Origin: a virus
Lineage: Duplodnaviria > Heunggongvirae > Uroviricota > Caudoviricetes
Strand: one strand, 5' to 3'
Virus record (IMG/VR): IMGVR_UViG_3300042892_001069
DNA: 64,000 nt
Shown here in pieces: positions 19,929 through 61,217 of this stretch; the stretch's first letter is position 1, and each line of letters starts with the position of its first letter. The notes under the pieces were generated by a model that was not told the origin of the DNA, ran no database searches, and saw nothing but the letters and a program-made list of their open reading frames with translations. The translations under genes were made by a program, and so were the position numbers.

Positions 19929-19957
19929 ATTATACGTTCATTCTGAGGCATTGTCAA
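19929..19957 (-). promoter_or_regulatory. Consensus sigma70-type promoter TTGACA-17-TATAAT (minus strand), overlapping stop of upstream rSAM gene
   Basis: Minus-strand read: TTGACAatgcctcagaatgaacgTATAAT. Confidence 0.55.
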
Positions 19958-41256: not shown

Positions 41257-42111
41257 ATGAAAATTGAATACCCGTACAACGATTGGACACCAGTAGTTTT
41301 TGGTGATGTTAGGACCTTTACCGATGCTGACATACAACAGTTAGGGGTTGCTCTAGCTGAAGAAATTATGGTCTTATTCAGAGGCCAAACCTTAACTCCC
41401 CAAGAAGAAGTTGATTTTGGTGCTCGATTTGGCACCTTAGAAGACAAATCGATTGTTAATGCTAAAAACAAACGAGCAATTAATATTGACGGTATGGGCG
41501 GGCTAATTAGTCGGGTAACTGGCAAATTGAATGAAGACGGAATGCCGGGAATACACGGCGGTGTATCTGCGTTAGATTGGCACTGTAATAGAGCTTGGGA
41601 TAAGAACAGAGATCCTGTTGTGTATTTGTACAGCGTCGAAGGTAGCGCAGGAAGTAAGACCAGCTGGGGGAATTATGTAAAAGCATATAACGAATTACCT
41701 CAGGAGTGGAAAGATCGACTTGCCAATCTTAAAGTTAAGACTGCCCAAACATACAGTAAGTATTCTGAGATGGGGAAATATTTTGGAGTTCCAGATCAAC
41801 CAAGTAATTGGTCAGTTAATATTATTACAAAAAATCCTGCGGGGAAAACTGTTATATTCTTTCCGTGGAATCAAATGGATGGCATTGCGGATGTATCCCC
41901 TGAAGAAGATAAAGAAATTACCGACTTCTTAATAAATTATCTACTACAAGAAAAATTCACTTACCATCACGATTGGGAAGACGGTGATATCATTATTGCT
42001 GACCAGTGGAGCGGAATGCACAAACGCTGGGAATTTGAAAAGATGGCAGAACGAGTTTTACATAGAATGGCATTCAACTATGATAAAATTCGCCTGCCAA
42101 ATCAAACTTAA
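41257..42111 (+). CDS. TauD/TfdA-family Fe(II)/2-oxoglutarate dioxygenase (284 aa)
   Basis: LDWHCNRAWD (WHxD-type) and C-terminal IIADQWSGMHKRWEF (DNRxxxHxR-type). Confidence 0.6.
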   Translation: MKIEYPYNDWTPVVFGDVRTFTDADIQQLGVALAEEIMVLFRGQTLTPQEEVDFGARFGTLEDKSIVNAKNKRAINIDGMGGLISRVTGKLNEDGMPGIHGGVSALDWHCNRAWDKNRDPVVYLYSVEGSAGSKTSWGNYVKAYNELPQEWKDRLANLKVKTAQTYSKYSEMGKYFGVPDQPSNWSVNIITKNPAGKTVIFFPWNQMDGIADVSPEEDKEITDFLINYLLQEKFTYHHDWEDGDIIIADQWSGMHKRWEFEKMAERVLHRMAFNYDKIRLPNQT

Positions 42112-43466
42112 TCTTTAGAAAACTTCCTTGACAACAGGTATCCAATTAAAGGAATACCTAGTCCACACAGCATAGCATATAAATCAAACTCGGGAGTTTT
42201 AGTCATCTTTGATTGTATTGAAAAATACAAGGCCGATGCTATTCCTAAAATTGACGAGTAGAAAATCCAGTTTTCACTTAACTTTCTATCTAGTGCGTGT
42301 AATACTAGCGGCACAAACATAGTGGCTCTAACAGCAGACATTAATACAAATAGCGTCCAGATATCAATCTTAAGCCACGACACTAACCAGACCGCAATTA
42401 AAAATCCAAACATGAACAGTCTAGATACTCCAACGCTTTCTTTGTGGGTCCAGTCAATTGACCCTAGACTTGCGATATAGTTTAACGCTGAATCAATAAC
42501 AGTAGATGCTTGTCCAATTAGTAAAATACCAAATATTAATAATCCACCTACACCTACATAGGTTCCGATGCTAGTTAACGTAGCAAAGTCTGGAGAAGTT
42601 ATAGCAATACCGTTACTAAATGCTAGTAAACTTAGTGATCCAAGAAAAAACACAATTACAGCAAACACCGCAGATGCTGTCAAGTAACTGGGTATAATAT
42701 TTTCTCGGGGCATACTAAATGCCTTTTGCCACATCATACCGTGACTAGTTGCTCCTACAATCATTGTAATAACGTAGGTAATACCAAACGTGGTTAAGAA
42801 TTTCCAATCTAGTACAGATTCAAGATTGTTCTGCCCTAGTGTAAAAATTCCATTGTCAGTAGCATTCATACCGATGATAGCACATGTTACAAAGAATATT
42901 ACCCACGCAGCCGATTGAAATGCTCCGGAGAACACACTGGTCCTAATACCGCCACGCATAGTGAATACCAATGTAATAACACCCACAGCTAGCGTAGCGT
43001 AGTAAGGGGCAATAGAATTGATTCCAGCAAATGCCCAAAACTTTTCAATCGCAATAAACGCTAACAAGATTGCGTAAAATGATACTAAGATAAAGTCTAA
43101 TTGATACAAGCCGCTAAGACGTTTGCTAAAATTATCTTGAATGTATTTTGTTAACGAATACCCGTCTGGATACTTGTTCCTGATCTTGTATGATATTAAT
43201 CCAACAACCGCAATGCTTAGGGCGTTAGGAATTACAAACCAAATTAGTCCATATAATCCCCATTTGTAAGCAACCGCTGGTCCAACAAACATTGCAATGG
43301 CAAAGAACCAGTGGCTACAAATAGCCAAACTTGATTCGGCAATTCGTAGTGATCGATTAGCAAATAAAAAATTGGTAAACGTAGAGCTCCATTGTTTACC
43401 TAATATAAATGTAGTCCCTAAAATACCCAATAAAAATATTAATGAGTAGGTAGTTAAGTGTTCCAT
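42108..43466 (-). CDS. Multi-pass membrane transporter, sodium:solute-symporter-like (452 aa)
   Basis: ~12 hydrophobic helices; late promoter TATAAATA upstream. Confidence 0.5.
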   Translation of the reverse strand: MEHLTTYSLIFLLGILGTTFILGKQWSSTFTNFLFANRSLRIAESSLAICSHWFFAIAMFVGPAVAYKWGLYGLIWFVIPNALSIAVVGLISYKIRNKYPDGYSLTKYIQDNFSKRLSGLYQLDFILVSFYAILLAFIAIEKFWAFAGINSIAPYYATLAVGVITLVFTMRGGIRTSVFSGAFQSAAWVIFFVTCAIIGMNATDNGIFTLGQNNLESVLDWKFLTTFGITYVITMIVGATSHGMMWQKAFSMPRENIIPSYLTASAVFAVIVFFLGSLSLLAFSNGIAITSPDFATLTSIGTYVGVGGLLIFGILLIGQASTVIDSALNYIASLGSIDWTHKESVGVSRLFMFGFLIAVWLVSWLKIDIWTLFVLMSAVRATMFVPLVLHALDRKLSENWIFYSSILGIASALYFSIQSKMTKTPEFDLYAMLCGLGIPLIGYLLSRKFSKD

Positions 43467-43487
43467 GTCAAATCCTTTTAAGTGGAA

Positions 43488-43495
43488 TATTTATA
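43488..43495 (-). promoter_or_regulatory. T4-type late promoter TATAAATA (minus), 21 nt upstream of transporter ATG (43466)
   Basis: Plus strand tatttata; RBS aaaagga. Confidence 0.4.
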
Positions 43496-43506
43496 GCGAT
43501 AAGTAG

Positions 43507-44439
43507 TTGATGTACGCACATTATGGAATCAACTACGATCCGACCAACTTTAAAATCTGGTATTCTCATTGCCAACGTCCGTCAGCTACGTGGACAGAGG
43601 AGATTAAAAAATCTGCTCAAATGTTAGCAGACTCAACTGATCGAGATATATGGATATGTATGAGTGGCGGAATTGATAGCGAAGTTGTTGCTAAAACATT
43701 TAAAGATTTGGGAATACCATTTCGTGCGTTAATAGCTCAGTTTCCAGACAAGTTAAACGAGCATGACATTGTGTATGCTCGTCGATGGTGCGAGTATCAC
43801 AATGTTGAATATAAATTGTTTGACTTTGACATGCTGAACTTTATAAAACAAGGCCACACTAAGTATCTTAAAGATGGACTAGTATCCAATAATATCTTTA
43901 GGTATTTTTGTATAGAGATGTTACAATGTATTGAAGACATGAACGGTTTTGGAATACTAGGTGGAAAGAGTGTTGGACTTGGGCTATTACAAAAAGATAA
44001 AGATATTGTAGATCCCAACAATGATCCAATTTACGACAGTTATGATATTGGATCATTAGCACCAATAGAATGGTGCCGTAGAAACAATCTTAATCATTGT
44101 GTTTTCTTTTATCAAACAAGTTCAGAAATACACAAGGCTTACTTAAATGATCCTATCAATCAAATGTTAATCAATAATCCCTATATGTTGCGAGCTTCAT
44201 CAGCTAACGAAGCCGCCAAGACATTAATGATGAGATCACATTTTCCGTTTACTGTGCCAAGAACAAAGCATCATGGCTTTGAAAAAATTATGGGTATTAG
44301 GGAAGAAGCACAGAAAAATATGGCTAGGTACTTTGGTCTTGATCCAGAGACTGATAACAAACGTTTTAAGTTTGTATTTTACAATGACCATATATCTATT
44401 CCCATAGGACACGTATTGGACCAATTACATTATGAATAA
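43507..44439 (+). CDS. PP-loop (SGGxDS) ATP-pyrophosphatase-family enzyme, paralog 1 (310 aa)
   Basis: WICMSGGIDSEVV P-loop; asparagine-synthetase/QueC/amidotransferase-like superfamily. Confidence 0.65.
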   Translation: MMYAHYGINYDPTNFKIWYSHCQRPSATWTEEIKKSAQMLADSTDRDIWICMSGGIDSEVVAKTFKDLGIPFRALIAQFPDKLNEHDIVYARRWCEYHNVEYKLFDFDMLNFIKQGHTKYLKDGLVSNNIFRYFCIEMLQCIEDMNGFGILGGKSVGLGLLQKDKDIVDPNNDPIYDSYDIGSLAPIEWCRRNNLNHCVFFYQTSSEIHKAYLNDPINQMLINNPYMLRASSANEAAKTLMMRSHFPFTVPRTKHHGFEKIMGIREEAQKNMARYFGLDPETDNKRFKFVFYNDHISIPIGHVLDQLHYE

Positions 44440-45079
44440 CCCTCAGATATTATTTGCGCTCAGTAGTTTCCATAGTTTTGATTCACGGCTATTGGTAATA
44501 TCTGATCGTGTATCAATATTAGAATGGCTTCGAGAAACTATTCCAACATATGAGTTTAGAGTTACTACAAACTTGTTGCCAATGAATGGTTACACTAAAG
44601 AACTTACATATACTAATAGTCACCTTTATAAGACTATAGATCAGAATGTAATGTTACAGAGTAATGCTAACAGCGAGATTGTAGAAATGAGCAACTTATG
44701 CAGATCGTGGTACGAAGGTTATATTAAAATTAATAACACAATTAGTCATCAGCGCAAACATTTGGGCGCCATGTGGATGTTTTCCTTACAAGATGTAGTG
44801 TACCAAGAAAAAGTTAAAGAAGCAGAAAAAGTATTAAACAACCAAACGGAAGATTTGAAATTCCTTCCATCAGAAGCAGGTTATAAAAAGATGTCTCTTC
44901 GAGAGCTAGCCGACCGAGTATTAGTAGAACACGAAATTGCGATGGGCTTCCTAGCAAGAACTGAACACTTGCGAGTCAAGTGGCTTGACACTTTGAAAGC
45001 ATCAACTAGCATTGCTAAACACAAAGAGATCCTAGTAGGGTTTAATAGAGAATTATATGAATACCATCTCATGTCCTAA
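44432..45079 (+). CDS. Hypothetical protein (215 aa)
   Basis: ORF track. Confidence 0.4.
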   Translation: MNNPQILFALSSFHSFDSRLLVISDRVSILEWLRETIPTYEFRVTTNLLPMNGYTKELTYTNSHLYKTIDQNVMLQSNANSEIVEMSNLCRSWYEGYIKINNTISHQRKHLGAMWMFSLQDVVYQEKVKEAEKVLNNQTEDLKFLPSEAGYKKMSLRELADRVLVEHEIAMGFLARTEHLRVKWLDTLKASTSIAKHKEILVGFNRELYEYHLMS

Positions 45080-46181
45080 TATTTTATTGTTTAACAGTAT
45101 TGTAGCCGAGGAACAGTTTAGAGGGTTGCCCGGGGTACATCAGTGGTCTAAGACTAGAAAAATTTGGGGGCATAACGGCTCTATGATTGATCGCACTGGT
45201 GTAGTACAGTTGCCGTTTAAAACAGAATTTTTAGATTCTATGCGGATTCCAGACATCCCTCAGAATTTTTCAAAAACATTAGAACAATGTTGTGTTGAAC
45301 ACGCACGGACAATAGTCGACCAAGCAGTGGGTACAGATCAAACAATTTCTATACTATGGTCCGGCGGCATTGATTCTACATGTGCGGTGTCTAGTTTCTT
45401 AATGTGTACTACTGCCCAAGAACGCACCCGTATCACAATCTTACTTAACAGAGAAAGCATTCTTGAAAATACTAAGTTTTATCAAACACACTTGGTAGGG
45501 AAATTAAATTGTAAAAGTAGCAACACTTGGGAATCATATATACGTCCAAATAACATATTTGTCACAGGTGAAGGTGGCGACCAGGTCTGCTGGAACGGGT
45601 TTACTAGAGCATCGGATACTATATTCAATGTACTAGGATGGGATACGCTTAAACAGTTTGCCAGTGCCGACTTAATGATCAAGGTACTTGAAATGGTAAG
45701 CCTTGATAAAGAGTCGGCAACTATAGGGTATGAGCGTGTGCTTGAACCCCTAAGGCAAAACTCAGTTGTTCCTGTAAATACAGTCGGCCAGCTATTATGG
45801 TATTTTAACTTTGCCGCTAAATGGCAAAACGTGTATCTTAGAACACTGCTAAACTTAGTAGACAACTCTGTCATAACTGATAACTATATAGCAACGAATT
45901 TTAAAATGTTTTTCCAAAGCAGTGATATACAAATTTGGACTATGTTAAACAATGAAAGCACAGTGTTAGTTAACAAGTTTACAGACATCAAGATGCCGTT
46001 AAAGCAAGTAACATATCAGTATGATAAAGATGAATACTACAGAGAGCATAAAGTAAAAATTGGAAGTCTAGGACGATTATCACGTATGCGTCCTAATATA
46101 GGGTATTTAAAATCTAACTGGGAGTTTTCTCCAACAGTTGATATTGACCAGTATTACAATAACCAGAATAGTTTTATTTGA
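45057..46181 (+). CDS. PP-loop ATP-pyrophosphatase-family enzyme, paralog 2 (374 aa)
   Basis: ILWSGGIDSTCAV. Confidence 0.65.
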   Translation: MNTISCPNILLFNSIVAEEQFRGLPGVHQWSKTRKIWGHNGSMIDRTGVVQLPFKTEFLDSMRIPDIPQNFSKTLEQCCVEHARTIVDQAVGTDQTISILWSGGIDSTCAVSSFLMCTTAQERTRITILLNRESILENTKFYQTHLVGKLNCKSSNTWESYIRPNNIFVTGEGGDQVCWNGFTRASDTIFNVLGWDTLKQFASADLMIKVLEMVSLDKESATIGYERVLEPLRQNSVVPVNTVGQLLWYFNFAAKWQNVYLRTLLNLVDNSVITDNYIATNFKMFFQSSDIQIWTMLNNESTVLVNKFTDIKMPLKQVTYQYDKDEYYREHKVKIGSLGRLSRMRPNIGYLKSNWEFSPTVDIDQYYNNQNSFI

Positions 46182-47623
46182 TGAATAAAAAAGGTAAAGA
46201 CATAATCATATGGACCGGCATTCCTAAAAGGTTGCCACAAAAGGTCATCGGGGCTTACCAAGTAGCACATTGGGTACGCCAGCACGGTTATACCGCACAA
46301 GTGATTGATCATATTCACAGATGGGACACTGAAACTATTGTGTCTATGACTGAGCACTTTATTGGTACTGAAACTGTAGCAGTTGGGCTTAGTGCTACAT
46401 TTATGTTCACGGTAGGTGAAACTGTATCATACAAAGATTCAGATATTCCAGAAGCTGCCTTTCCTCGAGCTATCGCAGTTCTAAAAGCCAAATATCCAAA
46501 GATTAAATTTATACTAGGTGGCGCAAGTGTACGACTAGACTTGTACGAACATAGTGATTTGTTTGATATTAAGTTAGGTGGGTTTGGTGAAGAGACTATT
46601 ATAGATACTATGGCTAAATTAAAGACCGGCGGTATACACAAGCGGCCACCGGATATATTTGATATTACTAAGGCATCGCATAGATGGCATAGTGATGACA
46701 TTATCCAGCCAGGTGAGGCACTACCTATTGAGATTGGTCGAGGGTGTATTTTCAAATGTAAATTTTGTCGTTACAGATTAACAGGTAAAGCTAAAGGAAC
46801 ATACTTACGAAGTATGGATTGTATCAAAGAAGAGATTCTTGATAACTATGAGAAATTTGGAACAACTCGTTACTTTTTATTAGACGATACGTTTAATGAA
46901 GATGTTGATAAAATTACTGCTTGGTATAAGATGTCCCAGTCTTTGCCTTTTAAAATTGAGTCAACTGCCTATACACGGGCTGACCTAGTGTGGTCAACTC
47001 CCGAAACAGCTCACATGCTACAAGAAGGTGGCCTAGTTAGTACGTTCCTTGGGATTGAATCATTCCATCCTAAAGCTAGTATGGCTGTGGGTAAGGGGTG
47101 GATGGGCAAGCACGGTAAAACTTGGTTGCCACATCTTAAGGATGATTTATGGAAAGGCCAAATGTCCATAACTATGGGATTTATTGTAGGACTACCGGGT
47201 GAGCCAGTAGACAGTATGTACGAATCTCAAAAATGGTTAGTTGATAATAAAATTAACAGTTGGAGATTTAGAACTTTACAAATTACCCCTAACGCTCAAG
47301 ATTACGATGACGTTAGCGAATTTGAAAGAGACGTTGCAAAGTACGGTTATTCATTTCCATATGCTGATGATCCAAATAAATGGAAAACTGATATTATGGA
47401 TAAGAATCGTGCTAACGAAATACAAGATGACATGTTAGCTAAATCTCGACCGTACATGCGCCACAGTTCTTGGGATCTGCCTGCTATGTTAAGTTTGGGG
47501 TATACCTGTGAAGATGTTCATATGAAATACTTTAATAATCCAATTTGGCAAACTAAGACTGATAGGATTCGACAGTTCTTAAAAACCTACAAGCAAATGA
47601 TGTTTGCTATCGATGTAGTTTAA
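46178..47623 (+). CDS. B12-binding-type radical SAM enzyme (481 aa)
   Basis: EIGRGCIFKCKFCRY (GCxFxCxFC); N-terminal ~170-aa Rossmann-like region consistent with cobalamin-binding domain. Confidence 0.65.
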   Translation: MMNKKGKDIIIWTGIPKRLPQKVIGAYQVAHWVRQHGYTAQVIDHIHRWDTETIVSMTEHFIGTETVAVGLSATFMFTVGETVSYKDSDIPEAAFPRAIAVLKAKYPKIKFILGGASVRLDLYEHSDLFDIKLGGFGEETIIDTMAKLKTGGIHKRPPDIFDITKASHRWHSDDIIQPGEALPIEIGRGCIFKCKFCRYRLTGKAKGTYLRSMDCIKEEILDNYEKFGTTRYFLLDDTFNEDVDKITAWYKMSQSLPFKIESTAYTRADLVWSTPETAHMLQEGGLVSTFLGIESFHPKASMAVGKGWMGKHGKTWLPHLKDDLWKGQMSITMGFIVGLPGEPVDSMYESQKWLVDNKINSWRFRTLQITPNAQDYDDVSEFERDVAKYGYSFPYADDPNKWKTDIMDKNRANEIQDDMLAKSRPYMRHSSWDLPAMLSLGYTCEDVHMKYFNNPIWQTKTDRIRQFLKTYKQMMFAIDVV

Positions 47624-48735: not shown

Positions 48736-48737
48736 TG

Positions 48738-49043: not shown

Positions 49044-49074
49044 GTTACTGATCTCCTAAAAGTATATTTATCAG

Positions 49075-51112: not shown

Positions 51113-51113
51113 G

Positions 51114-52046: not shown

Positions 52047-52106
52047 ACTGTATTTTATCACTTTTTGATAATATTTCCTACGATTGTGGCAGGCCATAAA
52101 TAACAG

Positions 52107-54100: not shown

Positions 54101-54527
54101 CAGCCTTGCCCCAAGATACTCTATTCCATACACGTTCGTGTGTGTAGTATATAATAATATTCATAATAGTAGCAATGGTTAGAAAGGCCACTGCCGCCTT
54201 CCATGATCCAGTAGTAAGGTATGGGATCATAAAGTTATTAAATGTAATCAATGCTCGCCAAGTAATACTCTTACTAATAGTTCTAGGTTGACCGTCCACA
54301 AACATATTAGTATCACCGTCTTTACGATTCCACTGAGCATAATTCCATGCTCGCTCGTGTAGCCAATGTAAGGTCATATTAACTACCGCGGCAATGCCAA
54401 GGATTTGGGCGCCAATGATCCAGCTACCAGACACTATAAATCCGTTCAGCAAGTGACTTAACGAAAAACAAACTCTGATAGTTAATGTTTTGGCAATGCT
54501 TCTTTTGTGTTGTTCTGTATATTTCAT
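54093..54527 (-). CDS. Small membrane protein with internal duplication (HERAWNYAQWNR / HERVWNRVSWGK)
   Basis: Two repeated TM+motif halves; DUF2061-like. Confidence 0.45.
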   Translation of the reverse strand: MKYTEQHKRSIAKTLTIRVCFSLSHLLNGFIVSGSWIIGAQILGIAAVVNMTLHWLHERAWNYAQWNRKDGDTNMFVDGQPRTISKSITWRALITFNNFMIPYLTTGSWKAAVAFLTIATIMNIIIYYTHERVWNRVSWGKAVT

Positions 54528-54571
54528 CAGCTATTTATTTTAGCAGCCTTACGGTATAAAATAAATATCTC

Positions 54572-55408: not shown

Positions 55409-56375
55409 GCAAATCAGCTTCTGAATACGTTTGCTTTTTAGGCGGTATAAAAGGTTTCCATATATACTGCTCGCCAAACTCTACCATGAACGGTGGAAAC
55501 AATTTTTCTTTATTAGGAACTTGACCTTCAAACCCAACAAGCTTCATTCGGTTTAAAAGTGTTGGCCAGTATTCTTGATGAATCCTAGATTTACTACTCA
55601 CATTGTCTAACTTACCTATTATGCTATCATTAATTAGTTGCTGGACATATGGCAGTTGTGTATACGCTACTACAATTTCCGGAGAGTATTCGTACCAATC
55701 AGTGATAGCAGTACGTCCAATAGTCTTATGATACGTTGCCCAATGATGTGGGGCTTCGTCCAGCTCAAATACCCAAGGGTGCTCAGTAGCCATATCTCTG
55801 CTAGTTCTTCTATAGTAAGGTTCGCCGCTGCCAATTATCGGAAGACCGTCTACATACTCTGTCATTTTCATGTGCGGCAACCATCCTGGCCCAGTAGCAT
55901 AAGACTTAGTCCAGATGTCGTATGCTTCGTTTTCAAAAAACTTTTCTAAATTAAAATCAATCACACACGGAGTAACATTAAGCTCTTGGCAAATCTTAAT
56001 AGCGGAGTTGTAATCGTGTACGTTGTGATTGTTGCTGTACTTACAGATATATACCTTAATTGGAATTTTTAGATCTAAATAAATTCTTAATATTACTTCG
56101 CTATCTATGCCGCCTGAAAACAGCAAACTCAATTCGCCGTTAAATGTATCTCTGATTGCACATGCGTTTGCCTTTAATTCTTCATAGTAACTTTTTACAG
56201 GACGTGTGATTACATTTTTAATTGTACACTTAAATTCTGCCGTTGGATCTAACTTAGGGCCATACTCAGAGCCGTCATTGTAAGTCCACGATAACCAATT
56301 ATCTCGATAAAACATATTGCCCCATTTGATGTGACCAGCGATGTGCACCTTGAAAAGTAATACCGTGTACAGCAA
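55386..56375 (-). CDS. PP-loop ATP-pyrophosphatase-family enzyme, paralog 5 (329 aa; possible start at 56315)
   Basis: LSLLFSGGIDSEVILRIY. Confidence 0.65.
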   Translation of the reverse strand: MLYTVLLFKVHIAGHIKWGNMFYRDNWLSWTYNDGSEYGPKLDPTAEFKCTIKNVITRPVKSYYEELKANACAIRDTFNGELSLLFSGGIDSEVILRIYLDLKIPIKVYICKYSNNHNVHDYNSAIKICQELNVTPCVIDFNLEKFFENEAYDIWTKSYATGPGWLPHMKMTEYVDGLPIIGSGEPYYRRTSRDMATEHPWVFELDEAPHHWATYHKTIGRTAITDWYEYSPEIVVAYTQLPYVQQLINDSIIGKLDNVSSKSRIHQEYWPTLLNRMKLVGFEGQVPNKEKLFPPFMVEFGEQYIWKPFIPPKKQTYSEADLLKLIYSQ

Positions 56376-56880
56376 CCCATTGCTTACAACTTTCCGGAAC
56401 AGGATCTAACGATCCGCATACATTATATTTGTCCTCAGCCATATAAAATTTAACTCCACAATTAGTTTCAATTAGATCTAAGTAATGTTTAAACGCTAAG
56501 GGATTATGTTCTCTGCTGATAAACACACAGTCTAAACCTAGTATCTGTGCTTTGGCCATTTGTAAGGGCAAACAATAGGTTGTATTGAGAAACTTGTCCC
56601 CACCGGTAAATTTACCTTTGTGTCTGTAGTCAGGATGTATCCACATACGAGTACTTACCCGCCCGACACCCGTACCCCACTTAGTGTCACTCAATTGTAA
56701 AGCACTAAAACAGACAATTTGATCGTCAATTATCACTACTGGAAAGCAGGCAAAGTCACGTGGGTCTAACCCTATGTAATTATCTTTAAGGCTATCATTA
56801 GTAGTTGCTAGATATTTTTGGTACTGATCCCAGAGTTCCTGATCAAAATTTGTAGCAAAGTCAATTATTGTTCTTACCAT
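56299..56880 (-). CDS. Hypothetical protein (193 aa), possibly acyltransferase-like
   Basis: ORF track; weak resemblance only. Confidence 0.35.
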   Translation of the reverse strand: MVRTIIDFATNFDQELWDQYQKYLATTNDSLKDNYIGLDPRDFACFPVVIIDDQIVCFSALQLSDTKWGTGVGRVSTRMWIHPDYRHKGKFTGGDKFLNTTYCLPLQMAKAQILGLDCVFISREHNPLAFKHYLDLIETNCGVKFYMAEDKYNVCGSLDPVPESCKQWVAVHGITFQGAHRWSHQMGQYVLSR

Positions 56881-56903
56881 ACGATATTTACTTAAATACT
56901 ACC

Positions 56904-57728
56904 ATGCCTAAAATAAATTCATTTCTCTATTATATTCTCTATCCTGTACACGCACTAGCATGGATTGGCGTTATTGCTTATTCATTTTTCTTTGACTTTA
57001 CGTGGACAAACTTCTTTCAATTGTTAGTTGGATGGATTATAATTGAGGGGTTGGGGGTTGCTGTAGTCTTACACAGATATGTAAGCCATAAGGCGTTTGA
57101 GGCTCGCCCTGGATTAAAGCCAATCTTACTTTGGATTAGTTGCTTGTCCTTGCAAGGGAGTCCACTAGGTTGGGCCGCAGTACACAGAGGTAGTCATCAT
57201 AGATACACGGATACAGAAAAAGACGCACATACTCCTACTAAGGGATGGTGGTATTCTTGGCATGCTTGGCTATATGATTGGGATCAATACTTTAACCCTA
57301 AGTACGTAATTGATCTAGTTAGGGATCCTATATACATGTGGTTTGCTAAACATTACAATGCTGTTATTATCGGAACCTACATAGTTGTAGGACTGTTTAG
57401 TTGGCAGTTGTTACTATTTGGATTTATGATACCGGCTGCTATAAGTTTGTATATGGAAAGTAATATTAATGTATTCTGTCACACCCCCGGAATTGGTTAC
57501 AGAAATTTTGAAACTAAAGATGCTAGTCAAAACGTGCCGTTTCTAGCATTGATTACTTGGGGACAAGGCTGGCACAATAACCATCACGCAAAAGCAAGTT
57601 CATATGACTTTGGTACAACAGTAAGTGGCAACAAAAAAGAGTGGGATCCTAGTTTAATATTCCTTCCGTTAATTGCTACAAAAGAAAGTCGTGAGAAAAT
57701 TTACAATGACCGACTTCACCCACAATAA
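56904..57728 (+). CDS. Membrane fatty-acid desaturase, acyl-CoA/acyl-lipid delta-9 (SCD/DesC)-like (ATG at 56904; ORF track used TTG at 56868)
   Basis: Three His boxes: HRYVSH, HRGSHHRYTD...D.H.P, GQGWHNNHH (cf. SCD HRLWSH / HRAHH / GEGFHNYHH); 4 TM segments. Confidence 0.75.
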   Translation: MPKINSFLYYILYPVHALAWIGVIAYSFFFDFTWTNFFQLLVGWIIIEGLGVAVVLHRYVSHKAFEARPGLKPILLWISCLSLQGSPLGWAAVHRGSHHRYTDTEKDAHTPTKGWWYSWHAWLYDWDQYFNPKYVIDLVRDPIYMWFAKHYNAVIIGTYIVVGLFSWQLLLFGFMIPAAISLYMESNINVFCHTPGIGYRNFETKDASQNVPFLALITWGQGWHNNHHAKASSYDFGTTVSGNKKEWDPSLIFLPLIATKESREKIYNDRLHPQ

Positions 57729-58617
57729 TCATTTAAAGTATACTATAGGTCAAGGACAGTATCGTAGTACATCTATAGAAAAGTATAATGTTCAGTTAGG
57801 CACAATAGACCCTGATAGATATGCCTGTAGCTCGTATACTGATGAACTACATAGGACCGCTGAACTAGTGCGCACGGATTTAGGCAACGACCTAGTACTA
57901 TTCCTATCAGGCGGAACTGACAGTGAAATTGTTCTACGTAATTTTATACATACAGGATTTAAACCACAGTGCGTTGTCCTACGGTTTGAAAACAATTACA
58001 ATGCCGGCGAGGTAGCAGAAGCACAGGCTATTGCTAGTGAACTAGATGTAAAGTTAAACATTATAGATTTTGATGTACATGACTTTTACAACTCCGGCGA
58101 AGCAAAAGAATTTGGTAATCAAATACAATGTACACAATTGACATACAATATGGTCTACAAAAGTATATTAACTCTGGGTGCGCCCGCAGTAATGGGCGGT
58201 GAAGCACTATTAACTAGGCAAGTAAGTACAACAGATAGTTATTGGTATTATACGTTTCGTGAAAACGAAGATGCTAGTGCTATGCGCTTTACTAACAAGT
58301 TTAGTATACCGTTAGTTAACGAATGGTTTAGTTACACACCCGAGTTGTTACTCTACTATCTAGAGCACCCCAGCATTAAAGAATTAACTACTAGTACTAA
58401 CTATAAACTAACATCTGCGTCTAGTAAGAACGCTATCTTAAAACAACTGTATCCTAATTTTAGAACTAAGAAAAAGATACACGGGTTTGAAAGTTTGTTA
58501 GCATTTAACCTAACGGCTTATAAGGACTTAGGACATGATCAAGTTAAGAGGTTAGAGTTTAGCTTGGATGGTGTTGAATACACGCAAGCAATTGCACAAC
58601 TTAAAGGCCAACAATGA
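57673..58617 (+). CDS. PP-loop ATP-pyrophosphatase-family enzyme, paralog 6 (314 aa; possible start at 57706)
   Basis: LVLFLSGGTDSEIVLRNF. Confidence 0.65.
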   Translation: MLQKKVVRKFTMTDFTHNNHLKYTIGQGQYRSTSIEKYNVQLGTIDPDRYACSSYTDELHRTAELVRTDLGNDLVLFLSGGTDSEIVLRNFIHTGFKPQCVVLRFENNYNAGEVAEAQAIASELDVKLNIIDFDVHDFYNSGEAKEFGNQIQCTQLTYNMVYKSILTLGAPAVMGGEALLTRQVSTTDSYWYYTFRENEDASAMRFTNKFSIPLVNEWFSYTPELLLYYLEHPSIKELTTSTNYKLTSASSKNAILKQLYPNFRTKKKIHGFESLLAFNLTAYKDLGHDQVKRLEFSLDGVEYTQAIAQLKGQQ

Positions 58618-59201
58618 TTGTAGAATTAGGTCAAACACACAAAGAATTAATTAAGCCTCTTTTTTATAGAGACACTTATATGGGCATGGACCTAAGCTCT
58701 AACTATATTGTTGACCCCAGCGAAAAAGTACAAACGGTATTTTACAATACGTTTGTAGATACATACCTATCTGGTCTACGTAACTACAAGGCTTTAGGCT
58801 TAGTTGAAAATGGCGTAGTAAAATCACTGATATCATTTTATATGAGCCCAGATGAACCTTGTTGGTACGGAACAATGATCCGTAGTCTTAATGATAAGAA
58901 CTATGTACGACCACTATTAGATTCAGCGATGGCATTTAACGAGACTCGTGGCCGTTTAAAGTTTTACACTCTTTGGAATGCCGACCACGGTAAATTACTA
59001 CGTAGATTTGCGTTTAGCACAGTCGCAAACACTCGTTACGATTATGTAGATGAAATACTAGTACCAGCAAGGACTAAATGTGTTTACACTAACTACTGGC
59101 AAATACTGTTTAACAGAACTTTACTGCCCGTTGACAGTGTTGTACGCTGTACCTTTTTAAAACAAGAATACAGAACTACTCCTATAGGAGGTAATATATG
59201 A
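58614..59201 (+). CDS. Hypothetical protein (195 aa)
   Basis: ORF track. Confidence 0.4.
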   Translation: MIVELGQTHKELIKPLFYRDTYMGMDLSSNYIVDPSEKVQTVFYNTFVDTYLSGLRNYKALGLVENGVVKSLISFYMSPDEPCWYGTMIRSLNDKNYVRPLLDSAMAFNETRGRLKFYTLWNADHGKLLRRFAFSTVANTRYDYVDEILVPARTKCVYTNYWQILFNRTLLPVDSVVRCTFLKQEYRTTPIGGNI

Positions 59202-59803
59202 ATATGGTAAGCCCGTTCAAATTGTTTGAACAAGATCTAAACACATTCAAGCTCAGTGCTAATATACATCTAGGACAAGAGCTACGTGAATTCTTTACAG
59301 ACCCCACTAACGATTACCTGTGGCAGTTAAGTACCCATAGACAAACTGTTACTCACGCTCTACGCTACACAGAAAGTATACCTTTACGCTACTTAAAAGA
59401 CTTGCCCAAAGGTTCCACAACAATGGAAGCCAATCAGCATATGGCAGTTACCGATTCAAAGCTAGCTGACATACCTGTATTTAGAAAGACGATCAATTGG
59501 TTTGAATCCACACTCGCCGCAACTGGCTGTAGTCGTGTAGAGTTTGGTCGAGTCTTTGCTAGTAAGCTCTCAGGCAATCAAAAGATAGACATACATACAG
59601 ATGACGGCAAGTATTTTAGCTATTACGATCGATTTCATTTTACGGTAACAGCCGCCCCCAATAATCTGTTTGTTATACGTGATGAAGAATGTGTACTAGA
59701 ACAGGATTCGTTGTATTGGGTCAATAATCATGTGCCGCACTGGCTTGAGAATAAAAGTACAGAAGGCAGAATAAATTTTATTATAGATGCTAGATTAATA
59801 TGA
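59198..59803 (+). CDS. Aspartyl beta-hydroxylase-like cupin oxygenase (201 aa)
   Basis: IHTDDG...RFHF...NNHVPH (HxD...H). Confidence 0.55.
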   Translation: MNMVSPFKLFEQDLNTFKLSANIHLGQELREFFTDPTNDYLWQLSTHRQTVTHALRYTESIPLRYLKDLPKGSTTMEANQHMAVTDSKLADIPVFRKTINWFESTLAATGCSRVEFGRVFASKLSGNQKIDIHTDDGKYFSYYDRFHFTVTAAPNNLFVIRDEECVLEQDSLYWVNNHVPHWLENKSTEGRINFIIDARLI

Positions 59804-60675
59804 AGATTGAAAACATATATGCCGATTGGGGATCAATAATTTACTTAGAGTCTCCACAAGAATTTTTTAGTAAGCCACATGGCTACTGGCGTGATCTAAT
59901 GTACGAGCGTAAATTAATATTTTTTAAAAAAGTAGAATTTACTAAAGCTGAGTACGCAGAATTTAGTACATATTTTGGTAATCCTTGGACTAGTGAGGAC
60001 TACAAATACTCTCGTGAAGTTGTAGAGTCTGTAGAAACTAAAAATGGTATTATGACCATAAGCCCGTTTAGTAATGCCAATTCTAGATTAATTGATGATA
60101 GAGAAATGCCGTGGCATGCTGATATTCCTAACAGAGAATTCAAGCCATATCCTTTTAGAAGTTTATGGATTACTGCTAATCCTAACCCAGAATTATCAGG
60201 TAAAACAAGTTGGCTAAACTTAGAAAAGGGCATGGACTTCCTTACGTCTGAGATGAAAGCAATGATACCAACTGTTAAAGTAGTTCAGCAAAGTTGGTAC
60301 GAAGAAGGCAAAGATATACAGGAATTTGATTTATTAAAAGTACATCCAATCACAGGAAAAGAGTCGCTACGTTTAAATTATTATAACTGGGGGTTATTAA
60401 AAAATGCTTGGATATTAGATGTAAAAATTAATGATGTAGCCCAAGGTCATTGTTTCTTAGTTAGACAATGGTTACAGCATTTAGAAAAGTTTTCTGAATT
60501 ACGTTATCAACACACTTGGGACTTACACGATATTGCTGTTTATGATAATTGGTCTTTTTTACATTCTCGGACCGCATTAAAATTTACTGTTGAGCAACCT
60601 ATTAGACATTTTTACAGAATTAACATAGACCACTTAACTGACGAAGAGTGGAATTTACATAAACAACAATTATGA
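59800..60675 (+). CDS. TauD/TfdA-family Fe(II)/2OG dioxygenase, second copy (291 aa)
   Basis: MPWHADIP (WHxD) and VYDNWSFLHSR (DNRxxxHxR-type). Confidence 0.6.
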   Translation: MKIENIYADWGSIIYLESPQEFFSKPHGYWRDLMYERKLIFFKKVEFTKAEYAEFSTYFGNPWTSEDYKYSREVVESVETKNGIMTISPFSNANSRLIDDREMPWHADIPNREFKPYPFRSLWITANPNPELSGKTSWLNLEKGMDFLTSEMKAMIPTVKVVQQSWYEEGKDIQEFDLLKVHPITGKESLRLNYYNWGLLKNAWILDVKINDVAQGHCFLVRQWLQHLEKFSELRYQHTWDLHDIAVYDNWSFLHSRTALKFTVEQPIRHFYRINIDHLTDEEWNLHKQQL

Positions 60676-61217
60676 ATTTATTAATCACTCCTGATAATCA
60701 AGGACCCTGGGCTGTACGTTACCTAAGTGTACAGCACAGATTTGATAATACCTCTTTTTATAATAACTATTTTTCACCTAGTTTAAAAGAAGCAGGAATG
60801 AACATTAGGAAACAAACAGCTGATCTTAAAACAGACTGGTCTGCGCATAATCAAATATTTTATGATTCGGCAGCTGACGGAAATCTAGTATGGCGTGTAA
60901 AAGTTGGAAATAAAGAAACACGTAGTATTGACTACGTTGAAGTGTGGCGTAGTGTTAATGTTTTAAATCAGTATTTTGGAAAACAGACCGATATGCCTAA
61001 TTGGACAACAGCCAGTAGAAAAACATTCAATGAACAGCTATTTGAAAGTGGATTTATTATATCAGACTTACAAGAATTCCCGTTAATATCAAAAAAACAA
61101 GCAATTGAGTATTACAGAATTTTTGTAGACAAATGGAAGTCTAAAGACGACTGTATCATTAATACTCCCTGGAACAAAGAACTTAACCCATTAGATCCTG
61201 TCGAACATCAGGTTTAA
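60672..61217 (+). CDS. Hypothetical protein (181 aa)
   Basis: ORF track. Confidence 0.4.
   Translation: MNLLITPDNQGPWAVRYLSVQHRFDNTSFYNNYFSPSLKEAGMNIRKQTADLKTDWSAHNQIFYDSAADGNLVWRVKVGNKETRSIDYVEVWRSVNVLNQYFGKQTDMPNWTTASRKTFNEQLFESGFIISDLQEFPLISKKQAIEYYRIFVDKWKSKDDCIINTPWNKELNPLDPVEHQV

What the first reader, a model, noticed from the sequence alone, without database searches (positions are those of the whole stretch)
41257..61217. ~20-kb accessory island packed with PP-loop enzymes, B12-radical-SAM enzymes and five classes of oxygenase: candidate novel phage-borne biosynthetic or modification system
Twenty-one contiguous genes make up the island. Six are PP-loop SGGxDS ATP-pyrophosphatase paralogs and two are B12-type rSAM paralogs (GCIFKCKFC). 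The oxygenases are two TauD/CAS-like, two or three AspH-like cupins, one Rieske protein, one acyl-CoA delta-9 desaturase-like enzyme and one nitronate-monooxygenase-like enzyme. A Bug/TctC solute-binding protein, a late-promoter-driven symporter-like transporter, a duplicated-motif membrane protein and several unknowns complete it. Gene density and enzyme types fit a multi-step pathway that tailors a carboxylate-bearing lipid, glycan or small molecule. PP-loop amidotransferases of the asparagine-synthetase class include LPS N-acetyl-sugar amidotransferases, beta-lactam synthetases and lasso-peptide cyclases. AspH/LpxO-type and desaturase enzymes act on lipid A and ornithine-lipid acyl chains. 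No described phage system matches this combination.
Basis: partly seen in the sequence, partly recalled or inferred. Interest (0 to 1): 0.85.

Follow-up and report, generated by a model that had tools for sequence, protein, structure and literature searches.

The report
Virus-only amide-ligase and oxygenase gene island
A large uncultured freshwater-type phage carries a conserved 20-kb block of enzymes, built around virus-only asparagine-synthetase-like ligases paired with a secreted nutrient-binding protein and with a membrane fatty-acid desaturase; the same pairings recur in hundreds of uncultured phages, and nobody knows what they make.

Summary
They include six SGGxDS PP-loop proteins, two CxxxCxxC radical-SAM paralogs that resemble the B12 class, two TauD, an AspH-like cupin, Rieske, SCD-type desaturase, NMO/FabK-like, TctC and DUF2061.

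The six PP-loop proteins are three unrelated families, not simple paralogs (PPa x2, PPb x3, PPc x1). AlphaFold models of PPa and PPb match asparagine synthetase B, beta-lactam synthetase and CarA best, but neither has a glutaminase domain.

- PPa is virus-restricted: 467 IMG/VR contigs, 3 hits in 185,579 species genomes, none in 50,697 GenBank phages.
- Two gene pairings recur. PPa sits with a signal-peptide TctC (43 of 62 loci, adjacent in 33). PPb sits with the desaturase (52 of 63 loci).
- All 18 correctly paired island genes compared are conserved against an 80-95% relative; dN/dS is 0.02-0.27 for the 15 pairs where it could be computed.

No known system matches. CmoA/X/Y, QueC, WbuX and RiPP clusters were tested and not met.

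My best reading (confidence about 0.4) is a modular phage toolkit that adenylates and amidates carboxylates (an imported one, and lipid-bound ones) and tailors them oxidatively. The substrate is unknown.

The parts
41257..42111 (+). TauD1: TauD/TfdA-family Fe/2OG oxygenase with an atypical HxN in place of HxD
   Evidence: Pfam PF02668, 103 bits. The WHCN motif aligns to E. coli WHTD and is conserved in L089, L001 and Pelagibacter phage Mosig.
42108..43466 (-). Mem452: polytopic membrane protein (about 11 TM), transporter-like, family unassigned
   Evidence: Hydropathy scan. Matches phrog_20720, of unknown function. No Pfam hit. TATAAATA lies about 22 nt upstream of the start.
43507..44439 (+). 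PPb1: stand-alone AsnB-type PP-loop ligase, family PPb
   Evidence: SGGIDSE motif. Paralog of 55386 and 57673. Sub-threshold QueC and Asn_synthase hits.
44432..45079 (+). u215: unknown protein, conserved only in close relatives
   Evidence: No Pfam or PHROG hit. 80% identical orthologue in L089, dN/dS 0.10.
45057..46181 (+). PPc: third PP-loop family (SGGIDST); fold not tested
   Evidence: Motif. Shares only the PP-loop stretch with PPa and PPb in hhalign. 25 homologues, all unnamed; one is 100% identical and lies on a 275,918-bp contig.
46178..47623 (+). rSAM1: radical SAM enzyme, class-B (B12-binding)-like
   Evidence: GCIFKCKFC motif. Pfam Radical_SAM 37.5 bits. Best NCBIfam matches are PhpK, HpnJ and the lipid B12-rSAM families, all below cut-off.
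47620..48735 (-). PPa1: stand-alone AsnB-type PP-loop ligase, family PPa (virus-restricted)
48738..49043 (-). u101: small (about 100 aa) alpha+beta protein of family fam3, usually encoded next to PPa
   Evidence: fam3 HMM E 1e-8. fam3 is adjacent to PPa in 17 of 62 loci. Weak ABM-monooxygenase match, E 0.04.
49075..50517 (-). rSAM2: paralog of rSAM1 (32% identity)
   Evidence: Weak hits to RiPP C-methyltransferase, ApyD and PhpK families.
50483..51112 (-). u209: fam5 cupin-like putative Fe/2OG oxygenase
   Evidence: fam5 HMM E 1e-8. Invariant HxD...H...R in 27 members. No Pfam hit. A homologue lies in the Mosig island.
51114..52097 (-). TctC/Bug-family solute-binding protein with N-terminal signal peptide
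   Evidence: Pfam PF03401, 70 bits. 57 of 66 viral homologues have a hydrophobic signal-like N-terminus. Present in 43 of 62 PPa loci and adjacent to PPa in 33.
52107..52949 (+). NMO/FabK-like FMN TIM-barrel oxidoreductase
   Evidence: Pfam NMO 43 bits. Best NCBIfam match is FabK enoyl-ACP reductase II, E 1.8e-10, below cut-off.
52946..54100 (+). PPa2: second PPa-family ligase
   Evidence: 28% identical to PPa1 over the full length. SGGADSH motif.
54093..54527 (-). DUF2061 membrane protein (two repeats)
   Evidence: Pfam PF09834, 85 bits, 2 stretches. 2 TM segments. Recurs next to PPa2-type genes.
54572..55408 (+). Rieske [2Fe-2S] oxygenase, alpha-subunit-like
   Evidence: Pfam Rieske plus Ring_hydroxyl_A. 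Found in 16 of 63 PPb loci.
55386..56375 (-). PPb2: AsnB-type ligase; the true start is probably near 56315
56299..56880 (-). u193: GNAT-like acyltransferase (family fam12)
   Evidence: fam12 HMM. The family profile hits GNAT structures: PaiA E 0.001, with several others. A homologue in Mosig is annotated N-acetyltransferase.
56868..57728 (+). SCD-type (acyl-CoA delta-9-like) membrane desaturase
   Evidence: Pfam FA_desaturase 61 bits. Matches PDB 4ymk at E 5e-11 with three His boxes. Present in 52 of 63 PPb loci.
57673..58617 (+). PPb3: AsnB-type ligase of the PPb3-u195-desaturase triad
   Evidence: The triad recurs in many loci.
58614..59201 (+). u195: conserved unknown protein, partner of PPb3 and the desaturase
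   Evidence: Found in 36 of 63 PPb loci. No PDB or Pfam hit. Not related to the GNAT-like family.
59198..59803 (+). AspH-like cupin hydroxylase
   Evidence: Pfam Asp_Arg_Hydrox, 27 bits against a cut-off of 22.6.
59800..60675 (+). TauD2: TauD-family oxygenase with canonical HxD...H
   Evidence: Pfam 62 bits. Motif alignment.
60672..61217 (+). u181: unknown protein, co-occurs in the syntenic loci L004, L033 and L067
61183..61941 (-). u252: unknown protein just outside the stated end; recurs in related loci; weak similarity to the AspH-like 23532-24200
   Evidence: TATAAATA lies 5 nt upstream of the start.
19938..26537 (-). Second, related cluster outside the finding: two twitch-domain rSAM proteins, an 813-aa protein with a C-terminal rSAM domain, an AspH-like hydroxylase and u348
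   Evidence: NF033640 at 210 and 362 bits against a cut-off of 170. Pfam AspH E 9e-11 for 23532-24200. The same five genes lie beside PPa-TctC in L014 and L015.

Best explanation
The island is a conserved set of small enzyme cassettes, found almost only in viruses and carried by a broad group of large uncultured phages of Gram-negative aquatic bacteria. It is not a single linear pathway.

Shown:
- Its core enzymes are stand-alone asparagine-synthetase-type PP-loop domains with no glutaminase domain.
- Module 1 pairs the PPa ligase with a phage-encoded TctC/Bug solute-binding protein that carries a signal peptide. A roughly 100-aa alpha+beta protein often sits beside them.
- Module 2 pairs the PPb ligase with an SCD-type integral-membrane acyl desaturase and a conserved unknown protein (u195).
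- Around these sit Fe/2OG oxygenases (TauD, AspH and a new HxD...H...R cupin family), a Rieske oxygenase, a FabK/NMO-like flavoenzyme, GNAT-like acyltransferases and radical-SAM enzymes (B12-class-like and twitch-domain).

Inferred mechanism:
- During infection the secreted TctC uses the host's own TctA/TctB membrane components to bring in a carboxylate. No phage TctA/B was recognised.
- The cytoplasmic PPa ligase adenylates a carboxyl group of that compound, or of a derivative, and converts it to an amide or a related acyl-substitution product.
- The PPb ligases do the same chemistry on a fatty-acyl or lipid-bound carboxylate whose chain the desaturase, the FabK-like enzyme and the hydroxylases remodel.
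- The net effect would be phage-directed rewiring of envelope lipids or of a carboxylate metabolite in the infected cell.

The identity of the substrate and of the product is not known.
For: Fold:
- The PPa1 model (pLDDT 91.6) and the PPb2 model (pLDDT 90.5) both rank AsnB, human ASNS, beta-lactam synthetase, CarA and TsnB9 first. About 225-250 residues align, against about 150 for other PP-loop enzymes. Nothing corresponding to the N-terminal glutaminase domain is present (lengths 310-384 aa).

Virus restriction:
- PPa occurs in 467 IMG/VR contigs and gives 1313 50%-identity clusters at E<=1e-10.
- It has only 3 MAG-contig hits in 185,579 species genomes and none in GenBank phages.
- The best BFVD matches are all uncharacterised proteins of uncultured Caudovirales.

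Linkage:
- In 62 dereplicated PPa loci, TctC is present in 43 and directly adjacent in 33. The small protein is present in 26 and adjacent in 17.
- In 63 dereplicated PPb loci (within 6 kb either side), the desaturase is present in 52 and u195 in 36.
- The background is near zero. TctC has 1 marginal hit and the desaturase 3 hits in 50,697 GenBank phages.

Other evidence:
- 57 of 66 viral TctC proteins have a hydrophobic signal-like N-terminus.
- The desaturase keeps the three SCD His boxes. The NMO-like protein's best family is FabK.
- Purifying selection acts across the island, and gene order is identical in relatives.
- A cultured SAR11 myophage (Mosig) has homologues of the desaturase, AspH, fam5 cupin, GNAT and TauD part next to its tail fibres.
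Against: - No substrate-level evidence exists for any enzyme.
- PP-loop and AsnB-type enzymes also act on nucleic acids (phage CmoY, PMC12783734) and on peptides, so lipid or metabolite chemistry is not forced by the fold.
- A periplasmic binding protein and a cytoplasmic ligase need not share a ligand; adjacency is only suggestive.
- No acyl carrier, acyl-CoA ligase, glycosyltransferase or phage TctA/B is present to complete a lipid or uptake pathway.
- Virus-restricted families are unusual for metabolic auxiliary genes, which normally have host homologues.
- High paralog number and rapid divergence of TctC, u101 and NMO (49-60% identity where flanks are 90-95%) look more like an arms-race or specificity-diversifying system than like housekeeping metabolism.
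Confidence: 0.4

Rival explanations
1. There is no common product. The region is a hyperplastic zone that accumulates independent auxiliary metabolic cassettes, each helping the infected cell scavenge or convert a different scarce nutrient. Examples would be TctC-mediated carboxylate uptake, TauD-type sulfonate use, Rieske or NMO oxidation, and desaturase-driven adjustment of membrane fluidity. On this view the PP-loop ligases are simply amidating salvage enzymes.
For: - Cassettes recombine freely. Copy number varies from 1 to 5 desaturases, 1 to 3 TctC and 1 to 5 PPa per locus.
- There are many strand switches.
- Hypervariable islands mixing AMGs, rSAM cassettes, AspH and transport genes are described in pelagimyophages and cyanomyophages (PMC7029224). 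Cyanophage desaturases are a known AMG (PMC5776448, listed).
Against: - Specific pairings (PPa-TctC adjacent in 33 of 62 loci; PPb-desaturase in 52 of 63) are far too regular for a random collection.
- The ligase families have no cellular counterparts, unlike ordinary AMGs.
- The whole 20-kb order is frozen among relatives at 80-95% identity.
Confidence: 0.25
2. The enzymes modify a viral macromolecule. One option is phage DNA: amide ligation onto a carboxylated base, as CmoY does, followed by oxidative or radical tailoring. The other is virion or tail-fibre proteins: Asp/Asn hydroxylation, radical-SAM cross-links or methylation, and amidation. The purpose would be to evade host defences or to alter host recognition.
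For: - The distribution is virus-restricted.
- There is a precedent: a stand-alone AsnB-like phage ligase acts on 5-carboxymethylcytosine in DNA (PMC12783734).
- AspH, twitch/SPASM rSAM and class-B rSAM are classic peptide-modifying classes.
- In Mosig the related genes abut tail fibres. In the window a giant 3740-aa fibre protein and fibre-like genes lie upstream.
- Paralog diversification fits an arms race.
Against: - No CmoX, and only one weak CmoA-like methyltransferase (in L032), occurs in the window or in 85 related loci.
- PPa and PPb share only the PP-loop stretch with CmoY.
- No other base-modifying enzyme turned up among the window proteins scanned against Pfam, PHROGs or NCBIfam; not every ORF was scanned.
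- A secreted solute-binding protein, an integral-membrane acyl desaturase, a polytopic transporter-like protein and DUF2061 do not fit DNA or virion modification.
- The giant fibre protein has no Cys-rich EGF-type AspH target repeats.
Confidence: 0.15
3. The island makes a bioactive small molecule in the infected cell, for example a beta-lactam/carbapenem-like or other amide-containing compound. The enzyme palette is that of clavam and thienamycin-type clusters: an AsnB-like synthetase, CAS/TauD-type oxygenases, B12 radical-SAM methylases, a GNAT, an ABM-like protein and a transporter.
For: - Beta-lactam synthetase and CarA are among the top structural matches.
- Carbapenem synthase is among the TauD1 sequence hits.
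- Class-B-like rSAM proteins, GNAT-like proteins, an ABM-like protein and a transporter-like membrane protein are all present.
Against: - No crotonase/CarB-type gene, NRPS/PKS gene or precursor gene was recognised among the proteins that gave a family hit; several island proteins remain unassigned.
- AsnB itself scores higher than the beta-lactam synthetases.
- Gene order is scrambled and modular.
- The families are absent from bacterial genomes, where such clusters normally live.
Confidence: 0.1
4. The PPa-TctC pair is a cofactor or nutrient salvage unit. One possibility is uptake of nicotinate or quinolinate-type pyridine carboxylates, or of aspartate or glutamate, by the Bug protein, followed by NadE-like or AsnA-like amidation. 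This would replenish NAD+ or amide amino acids during infection.
For: - Some Bug proteins bind quinolinate or nicotinate (PMC11452294, listed).
- NH3-dependent NAD synthetase and NMN synthetase are the best PDB sequence matches of the PPb profile, over the PP-loop only.
- That phage NAD+ reconstitution pathways are known rests on my own knowledge; I did not check it here.
Against: - No NMNAT, NadV or other NAD genes were seen.
- The idea does not explain six ligases, or the desaturase, rSAM and oxygenase partners.
Confidence: 0.05

Closest known systems
Asparagine synthetase B / beta-lactam synthetase / CarA / TsnB9 synthetase domains (PP-loop, AsnB class)
   Same: SGGxDS PP-loop. Best structural match for both PPa and PPb, aligning across the whole synthetase domain including the helical C-terminal subdomain. 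The expected chemistry is carboxylate adenylation followed by attack of a nitrogen nucleophile.
   Different: No N-terminal Ntn glutaminase (or relic) domain. Sequence similarity is confined to the PP-loop, and Pfam Asn_synthase and TIGR01536 score below cut-off. PPa has its own roughly 50-residue N-terminal beta domain. The families are virus-restricted.
CmoY, the phage ATP-dependent amide ligase of the CmoA-CmoX-CmoY 5-carboxymethylcytosine system (Synechococcus phage S-B43; PMC12783734)
   Same: A phage-encoded, stand-alone asparagine-synthetase-like ligase of about 270-380 aa. It shows that phages use this fold to amidate a carboxylate handle.
   Different: Only 40-54 aligned columns around the PP-loop. 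No CmoX, and only one weak CmoA-like methyltransferase (in L032), in the window or in 85 related loci. The partners here are a secreted TctC and a membrane desaturase, not DNA methyltransferases.
Hypervariable 'host recognition cluster' / AMG islands of pelagimyophages and cyanomyophages (PMC7029224; Pelagibacter phage Mosig EXVC030M, MT647606)
   Same: A large block of oxygenases, radical-SAM cassettes, AspH, desaturase, GNAT and TauD in aquatic myophages. Mosig has detectable homologues of the window's desaturase, AspH-like protein, fam5 cupin, GNAT-like protein and TauD1, including the HxN variant.
   Different: Mosig and all other GenBank phages lack the three PP-loop ligase families, the class-B-like rSAM pair and TctC. 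The window island carries no glycosyltransferase or LPS genes and is not directly next to the tail fibres.
Tripartite tricarboxylate transporter (TTT) solute-binding proteins (TctC/Bug family)
   Same: Pfam PF03401 above cut-off, a signal peptide, and the PGG and KPGA loop motifs visible in the N-terminal sequences listed.
   Different: Encoded by a phage, without TctA/TctB. Genetically coupled to a cytoplasmic AsnB-type ligase. It diverges much faster than its neighbours.
Cyanophage-encoded lipid desaturases (PMC5776448) and SCD1-type acyl-CoA desaturases
   Same: A membrane di-iron desaturase with three His boxes, carried by an aquatic phage.
   Different: Here the desaturase is one member of a conserved triad with an AsnB-type ligase and u195. 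It is often present in 2-5 divergent copies per locus.

Membership tests
PP-loop ATP pyrophosphatase superfamily | SGGxDS/T pyrophosphate-binding loop at the first beta-alpha turn | tested here: met
   The motif is present in all six proteins and invariant in the PPa and PPb alignments.
PP-loop ATP pyrophosphatase superfamily | Rossmann-like alpha/beta adenine-nucleotide hydrolase fold | tested here: met
Asparagine synthetase B family (glutamine-hydrolysing; Pfam PF00733 / TIGR01536) | N-terminal class-II (Ntn, Cys1) glutaminase domain | tested here: not met
   The proteins are 310-384 aa. There is no GATase hit, and the PP-loop begins at residue 50-100.
Asparagine synthetase B family (glutamine-hydrolysing; Pfam PF00733 / TIGR01536) | Score above the curated family cut-off | tested here: not met
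   Asn_synthase scores 18 bits against a cut-off of 21, in one protein only. TIGR01536 scores 13-16 bits against 267.
Asparagine synthetase B family (glutamine-hydrolysing; Pfam PF00733 / TIGR01536) | Synthetase-domain architecture (PP-loop core plus C-terminal helical subdomain) | tested here: met
QueC (7-cyano-7-deazaguanine synthase) | Score above the family cut-off over the full length | tested here: not met
CmoA-CmoX-CmoY DNA 5cxmC-glycine system | Ligase homologous to CmoY beyond the PP-loop | tested here: not met
   hhalign aligns only 40-54 columns, with probabilities of 2% and 64%.
CmoA-CmoX-CmoY DNA 5cxmC-glycine system | Neighbouring CmoX (SPPC C5-cytosine carboxymethyltransferase) and CmoA | tested here: not met
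   tblastn of S-B43 CmoA, CmoX and CmoY against the window and 85 loci finds no CmoX and one weak CmoA-like methyltransferase, in L032.
N-acetyl-sugar amidotransferase (WbuX/LfnA/PseA, TIGR03573) | Family HMM match / closest structure | tested here: not met
Class B (cobalamin-dependent) radical SAM enzymes | CxxxCxxC radical-SAM cluster motif and Radical_SAM domain | tested here: met
   GCIFKCKFC in both proteins. PF04055 scores 37.5 and 39.3 bits against a cut-off of 29.5.
Class B (cobalamin-dependent) radical SAM enzymes | N-terminal cobalamin-binding domain | tested here: inconclusive
   Alignments to B12-rSAM families (TIGR04072, TIGR04479, TIGR04013) extend into the N-terminal roughly 180 residues. 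All are far below cut-off, and no Pfam B12-binding hit was found.
TTT solute-binding protein (TctC/Bug, PF03401) | Family HMM above cut-off and export signal | tested here: met
   70 bits against a cut-off of 27. Signal-like N-terminus in the window protein and in 57 of 66 viral homologues.
TTT solute-binding protein (TctC/Bug, PF03401) | Cognate TctA/TctB membrane components encoded alongside | tested here: not met
   No TctA or TctB hit in the island. The only polytopic protein (42108-43466) has no family assignment and occurs in very few loci.
SCD-type acyl-CoA desaturase (PF00487) | Three His boxes, membrane spans, HMM above cut-off | tested here: met
   61 bits against a cut-off of 29.7. 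Aligns to SCD1 through HRxxSH, HRxxHH and HNxHH. 3 TM-like segments.
TauD/TfdA Fe(II)/2OG oxygenases | 2-His-1-carboxylate facial triad (HxD/E...H) | tested here: inconclusive
   TauD2 has HAD...H. TauD1 has HCN...H, with Asn conserved in its clade. Both pass the Pfam cut-off.
RiPP biosynthetic gene cluster | Short precursor-peptide gene next to the maturases | tested here: not met
   Intergenic gaps are 0-45 bp, so there is no room for one. The only small protein, u101/fam3, has a conserved roughly 90-aa fold-like core and no conserved C-terminal residue.
Pelagimyophage/cyanomyophage hypervariable host-recognition cluster | Position within the structural module beside tail fibres (VrlC to gp14) | tested here: inconclusive
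   A giant fibre-like ORF lies about 27 kb upstream, and fibre-like genes lie next to the 19.9-26.5 kb rSAM cluster. No VrlC or gp14 landmarks were identified. The phage is not close to any GenBank phage.

The most novel reading that the evidence does not exclude
PPa, PPb and PPc are three previously unrecognised, virus-only families of stand-alone AsnB-type amide ligases. Together with a phage-secreted TTT binding protein and phage desaturases, they would define a new class of viral pathway. In it, the phage imports a carboxylate through the host's own transporter and builds amide-modified, oxidatively tailored lipids or metabolites in the infected Gram-negative cell. The product could be a novel aminolipid, or an envelope modification used for superinfection exclusion or for membrane adaptation. 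The class would be widespread in large freshwater and marine phages.
Probability: 0.3. Interest if true: 0.85.

Novelty: new variant of a known kind. Interest (0 to 1): 0.62.

Why it matters
- If the two conserved modules each make a defined product, this would be one of the largest phage-specific metabolic systems with no cellular counterpart. It would expand what phages are known to do to host envelopes or metabolite pools.
- A phage-secreted TTT binding protein would be a new way for a virus to hijack a host transporter. The comparison with cyanophage PstS rests on my own knowledge.
- Three new AsnB-type ligase families (PPa alone has more than 1300 50%-identity clusters) offer new amide-forming enzymes.
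- Even if the modules turn out to be unrelated, the PPa-TctC and PPb-desaturase-u195 pairings are concrete two- or three-gene hypotheses. They can be tested by heterologous expression.

Tried and rejected
1. Known phage relatives. Megablast of the island, and tblastn of PPa1, PPb2, PPc and rSAM1, against 50,697 GenBank phages gave no match. A single-sequence IMG/VR scan also found nothing; the profile scan was needed.
3. The CmoA/X/Y system. I fetched S-B43. The ligases are not homologous beyond the PP-loop, no CmoX was found, and only one weak CmoA-like methyltransferase turned up, in L032.
4. WbuX-type sugar amidotransferase. No HMM hit and a low Z.
5. RiPP cluster. No precursor gene and no space for one.
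6. Carrier-protein or scaffold idea. I asked whether fam3/u101 acts as a LysW- or PEARL-like scaffold whose C-terminus is ligated by PPa. There is no conserved C-terminal residue and no acidic enrichment, so I dropped it.
7. u195 as a GNAT. No PDB hit and no similarity to the GNAT-like family.
8. fam5 cupins as Pfam AspH. 0 of 27 members hit any Pfam family; only the motif supports an oxygenase role.
9. Promoter and terminator scan. Counts equal the shuffled expectation. TATAAATA is not enriched.
10. tRNA and Rfam scans of the window were empty.
11. pI of the ligases as a hint of DNA binding was uninformative, since CmoY is also acidic.
12. Literature searches for PP-loop, TctC or AspH in phages returned nothing relevant.
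13. The AFDB Foldseek library was unavailable.

Full report
**1. What is in the window**

The window is phage DNA.
- It carries a 3740-aa tail-fibre-like ORF (2600-13822, minus strand), an endonuclease, an ATP-dependent DNA ligase and a ClpP-like prohead protease.
- The ligase is at most 34% identical to any GenBank phage protein. Megablast of the island finds nothing.
- The window's PPc protein is 100% identical to a protein seen on at least 23 metagenomic contigs. One of these is 275,918 bp long. The source is therefore an abundant, probably jumbo-sized, uncultured phage.
- The best structural matches among viral proteins are all 'uncultured Caudovirales phage' entries.

**2. Checking the observation**

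Region 41257-61217 holds 23 ORFs with almost no intergenic space and frequent strand switches.

The Pfam, NCBIfam and PHROG results confirm nearly every class call:
- TauD x2, TctC, NMO/FabK-like, DUF2061 (two repeats), Rieske plus Ring_hydroxyl_A, FA_desaturase and Asp_Arg_Hydrox.
- Two 32%-identical radical-SAM proteins with GCIFKCKFC. Their best, sub-threshold, matches are B12-binding rSAM families.
- Six proteins with SGGxDS.
- The desaturase aligns to SCD1 through all three His boxes.

Some corrections are needed:
- The six PP-loop proteins fall into three families that share only the PP-loop stretch: PPa (47620, 52946), PPb (43507, 55386, 57673) and PPc (45057).
- The second 'AspH-like cupin' (50483) has no Pfam hit. 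It belongs to a family with an invariant HxD...H...R.
- u193 is GNAT-like.
- u101 is a small alpha+beta protein with a weak ABM-monooxygenase match.

All 18 correctly paired island genes compared are conserved against a relative at 80-95% amino-acid identity. dN/dS is 0.02-0.27 for the 15 pairs where it could be computed.

**3. The PP-loop proteins**

AlphaFold models built on family alignments are confident: PPa1 has pLDDT 91.6 and PPb2 has 90.5.
- About 225-250 residues align to these, against about 150 for NadE, LarE, TilS, TtuA, PAPS reductase or QueC.
- None of the proteins has the N-terminal glutaminase domain, and none reaches the Asn_synthase, QueC or NadE cut-offs.

They are therefore stand-alone AsnB-type synthetase domains. 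The expected chemistry is adenylation of a carboxyl (or carbonyl) group followed by attack of a nitrogen nucleophile. That step rests on knowledge of the fold class and was not shown here.

**4. Distribution**

- PPa has 535 hits at 90% clustering, all unnamed. It gives 1313 50%-identity clusters at E<=1e-10 and relatives in 467 IMG/VR contigs of up to 355 kb.
- Only three MAG contigs among 185,579 species-representative genomes carry it, and no GenBank phage does.
- PPb has 202 hits and 167 IMG/VR contigs. PPc has 25 hits. Neither has a GenBank-phage match.

For PPa this shows a virus-restricted family. The same genome-wide check was not run for PPb or PPc.

**5. Co-conservation**

I called ORFs in 80 PPa-anchored loci (10 kb either side) and clustered them.

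In the 62 dereplicated PPa loci:

| Family | Loci present | Directly adjacent to PPa |
|---|---|---|
| TctC | 43 | 33 |
| Desaturase | 33 | 0 |
| PPb | 31 | 11 |
| fam5 cupin | 30 | 4 |
| Small alpha+beta protein (fam3) | 26 | 17 |
| AspH | 16 | 3 |
| B12-like rSAM | 14 | 2 |
| Twitch rSAM | 12 | 2 |

A reciprocal PPb-anchored set (63 dereplicated loci, 6 kb either side) contains the desaturase in 52, u195 in 36, PPa in 19 and Rieske in 16.

The background is negligible. TctC has one marginal hit and the desaturase three hits in 50,697 GenBank phages.

Recurrent orders are:
- TctC next to PPa, often followed by fam3.
- PPb3-u195-desaturase.
- Desaturase(s)-PPb2-PPa.
- Desaturase-PPc-PPa-TctC.
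- NMO-TctC-PPa.
- DUF2061 with PPa2.
- Rieske with PPb2.

Copy numbers vary widely. In close relatives the entire 20-kb order is identical.

The picture is of two core modules, PPa+TctC and PPb+desaturase+u195, plus shuffling accessory oxygenase and rSAM cassettes. It is not one fixed operon-like pathway.

**6. Clues to mechanism**

- Of 66 viral TctC homologues, 57 have a hydrophobic signal-like N-terminus. They are exported binding proteins of a Gram-negative host. No phage TctA/B was found, so the host's membrane components would be needed.
- In bacteria, orphan Bug genes usually sit beside enzymes that act on their ligand (my own knowledge). By that logic PPa would act on an imported carboxylate.
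- PPb is tied to an integral-membrane acyl-CoA-type desaturase. A FabK-like flavoenzyme, GNAT-like proteins and AspH-type hydroxylases lie nearby. Together these point to acyl-chain or lipid chemistry.
- Between the window and L089, TctC (49%), u101 (55%) and NMO (60%) diverge much faster than the flanking genes (90-95%). This suggests shifting specificity.

These steps are inference. No substrate is established.

**7. Rivals tested**

- DNA hypermodification has a real precedent. CmoY is an AsnB-like phage ligase that amidates 5-carboxymethylcytosine (PMC12783734). However, CmoY shares only the PP-loop with PPa and PPb. No CmoX, and only one weak CmoA-like methyltransferase (in L032), occurs in the window or in 85 loci.
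- A RiPP cluster lacks a precursor gene.
- A carrier-protein role for fam3 is not supported.
- WbuX-type sugar amidation is not supported.
- An NAD-salvage reading of PPa-TctC is possible but weak.
- A natural-product reading rests only on the enzyme palette (AsnB-like, CAS/TauD, B12-like rSAM, GNAT).
- The 'bag of unrelated AMGs' reading fits the modularity but not the strict pairings or the virus-only ligases.

**8. Closest known**

The closest concept is the hypervariable AMG or 'host recognition' islands of pelagimyophages and cyanomyophages (PMC7029224).
- Pelagibacter phage Mosig has homologues of the desaturase, AspH-like protein, fam5 cupin, GNAT-like protein and TauD1 beside its tail fibres.
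- It has none of the ligases, the class-B-like rSAM pair or TctC.
- I found no paper describing these ligase families or a phage TctC.

**9. Verdict**

- The interpretation as a novel, co-conserved phage enzyme system is supported. The idea of a single pathway, and the specific analogies, are not.
- Novelty: a new variant of the known kind 'phage hypervariable metabolic island', built on three new virus-only ligase families and two new conserved gene pairings.
- Interest: about 0.6.

Noticed in passing
window 19938-26537 (- strand): A second enzyme cluster outside the finding. It has two twitch-domain radical-SAM proteins (NF033640, above cut-off), an 813-aa protein with an unknown 600-aa N-terminal region and a C-terminal rSAM domain, an AspH-like hydroxylase (23532-24200) and an unknown 348-aa protein. 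The same five genes lie beside PPa-TctC in L014 and L015.
   Followed up: partly
window 41257-42111 (TauD1); L089, L001, L081 (Mosig): The TauD1 clade has WH(C/N/S)N where TauD-family enzymes have the iron-binding HxD. The Asn is conserved from this phage to Pelagibacter phage Mosig. TauD2 keeps HAD. This may mean altered chemistry or a non-catalytic role.
   Followed up: partly
window 30796-30803, 43488-43495, 61946-61953 (- strand): The T4-type late-promoter motif TATAAATA lies 5-25 nt upstream of three minus-strand gene starts (30776; 43466 for Mem452; 61941 for u252). The total count in the window (5) is not above chance (8.4 expected).
   Followed up: partly
window 41189-41217 (- strand): A perfect 12/12 sigma-70 consensus (TTGACA-17-TATAAT) sits in the 210-bp gap at the left border of the island, facing the leftward genes.
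   Followed up: no
window 62372-63850 (- strand); L019-L022: A DUF2828/DUF7788 protein (492 aa) flanks the island. Homologues follow PPa directly in several unrelated loci.
   Followed up: no
L044:11183-12100; L049, L051, L054-L057, L060, L070 near 11.2-12.1 kb: The small fam3 protein is fused to a 196-aa HxH cupin in one locus. In at least 8 other loci the two are separate adjacent genes, just downstream of PPa. This Rosetta-stone link ties fam3 to an oxygenase. That cupin family is absent from the window.
   Followed up: partly
window 51114-52097, 48738-49043, 52107-52949 versus L089: TctC (49% aa identity), u101 (55%) and NMO (60%) diverge far more than neighbouring island genes (80-95%) between two otherwise syntenic relatives.
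   Followed up: partly
L001:16468-16662; L002:11230-11430: A small Hc1 (histone-H1-like) gene lies close to the PPa/TctC module in two distant contigs (79 kb and 355 kb). It was not looked for in the window.
   Followed up: no
window 2600-13822 (- strand): A giant 3740-aa Thr/Gly/Ser-rich tail-fibre-like protein with repeated internal segments. Its C-terminal region matches phrog_22593. It has no Cys-rich EGF-type repeats.
   Followed up: partly
window 27403-28098 and 28100-28471 (- strand): A six-TM membrane protein and a small acidic protein sit next to the DNA ligase. From their sequences I guessed Bax-inhibitor-1/YccA-like and MazG-like respectively; neither was run against any family library. 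Homologues of the second recur in several PPa loci.
   Followed up: no
window 55386-56375, 51114-52097, 56868-57728: The longest-ORF starts are probably too far upstream. PPb2 homologues are about 309 aa and the first 19 residues are disordered in the model. The TctC signal peptide begins at about residue 18. Desaturase orthologues are 273-274 aa.
   Followed up: partly
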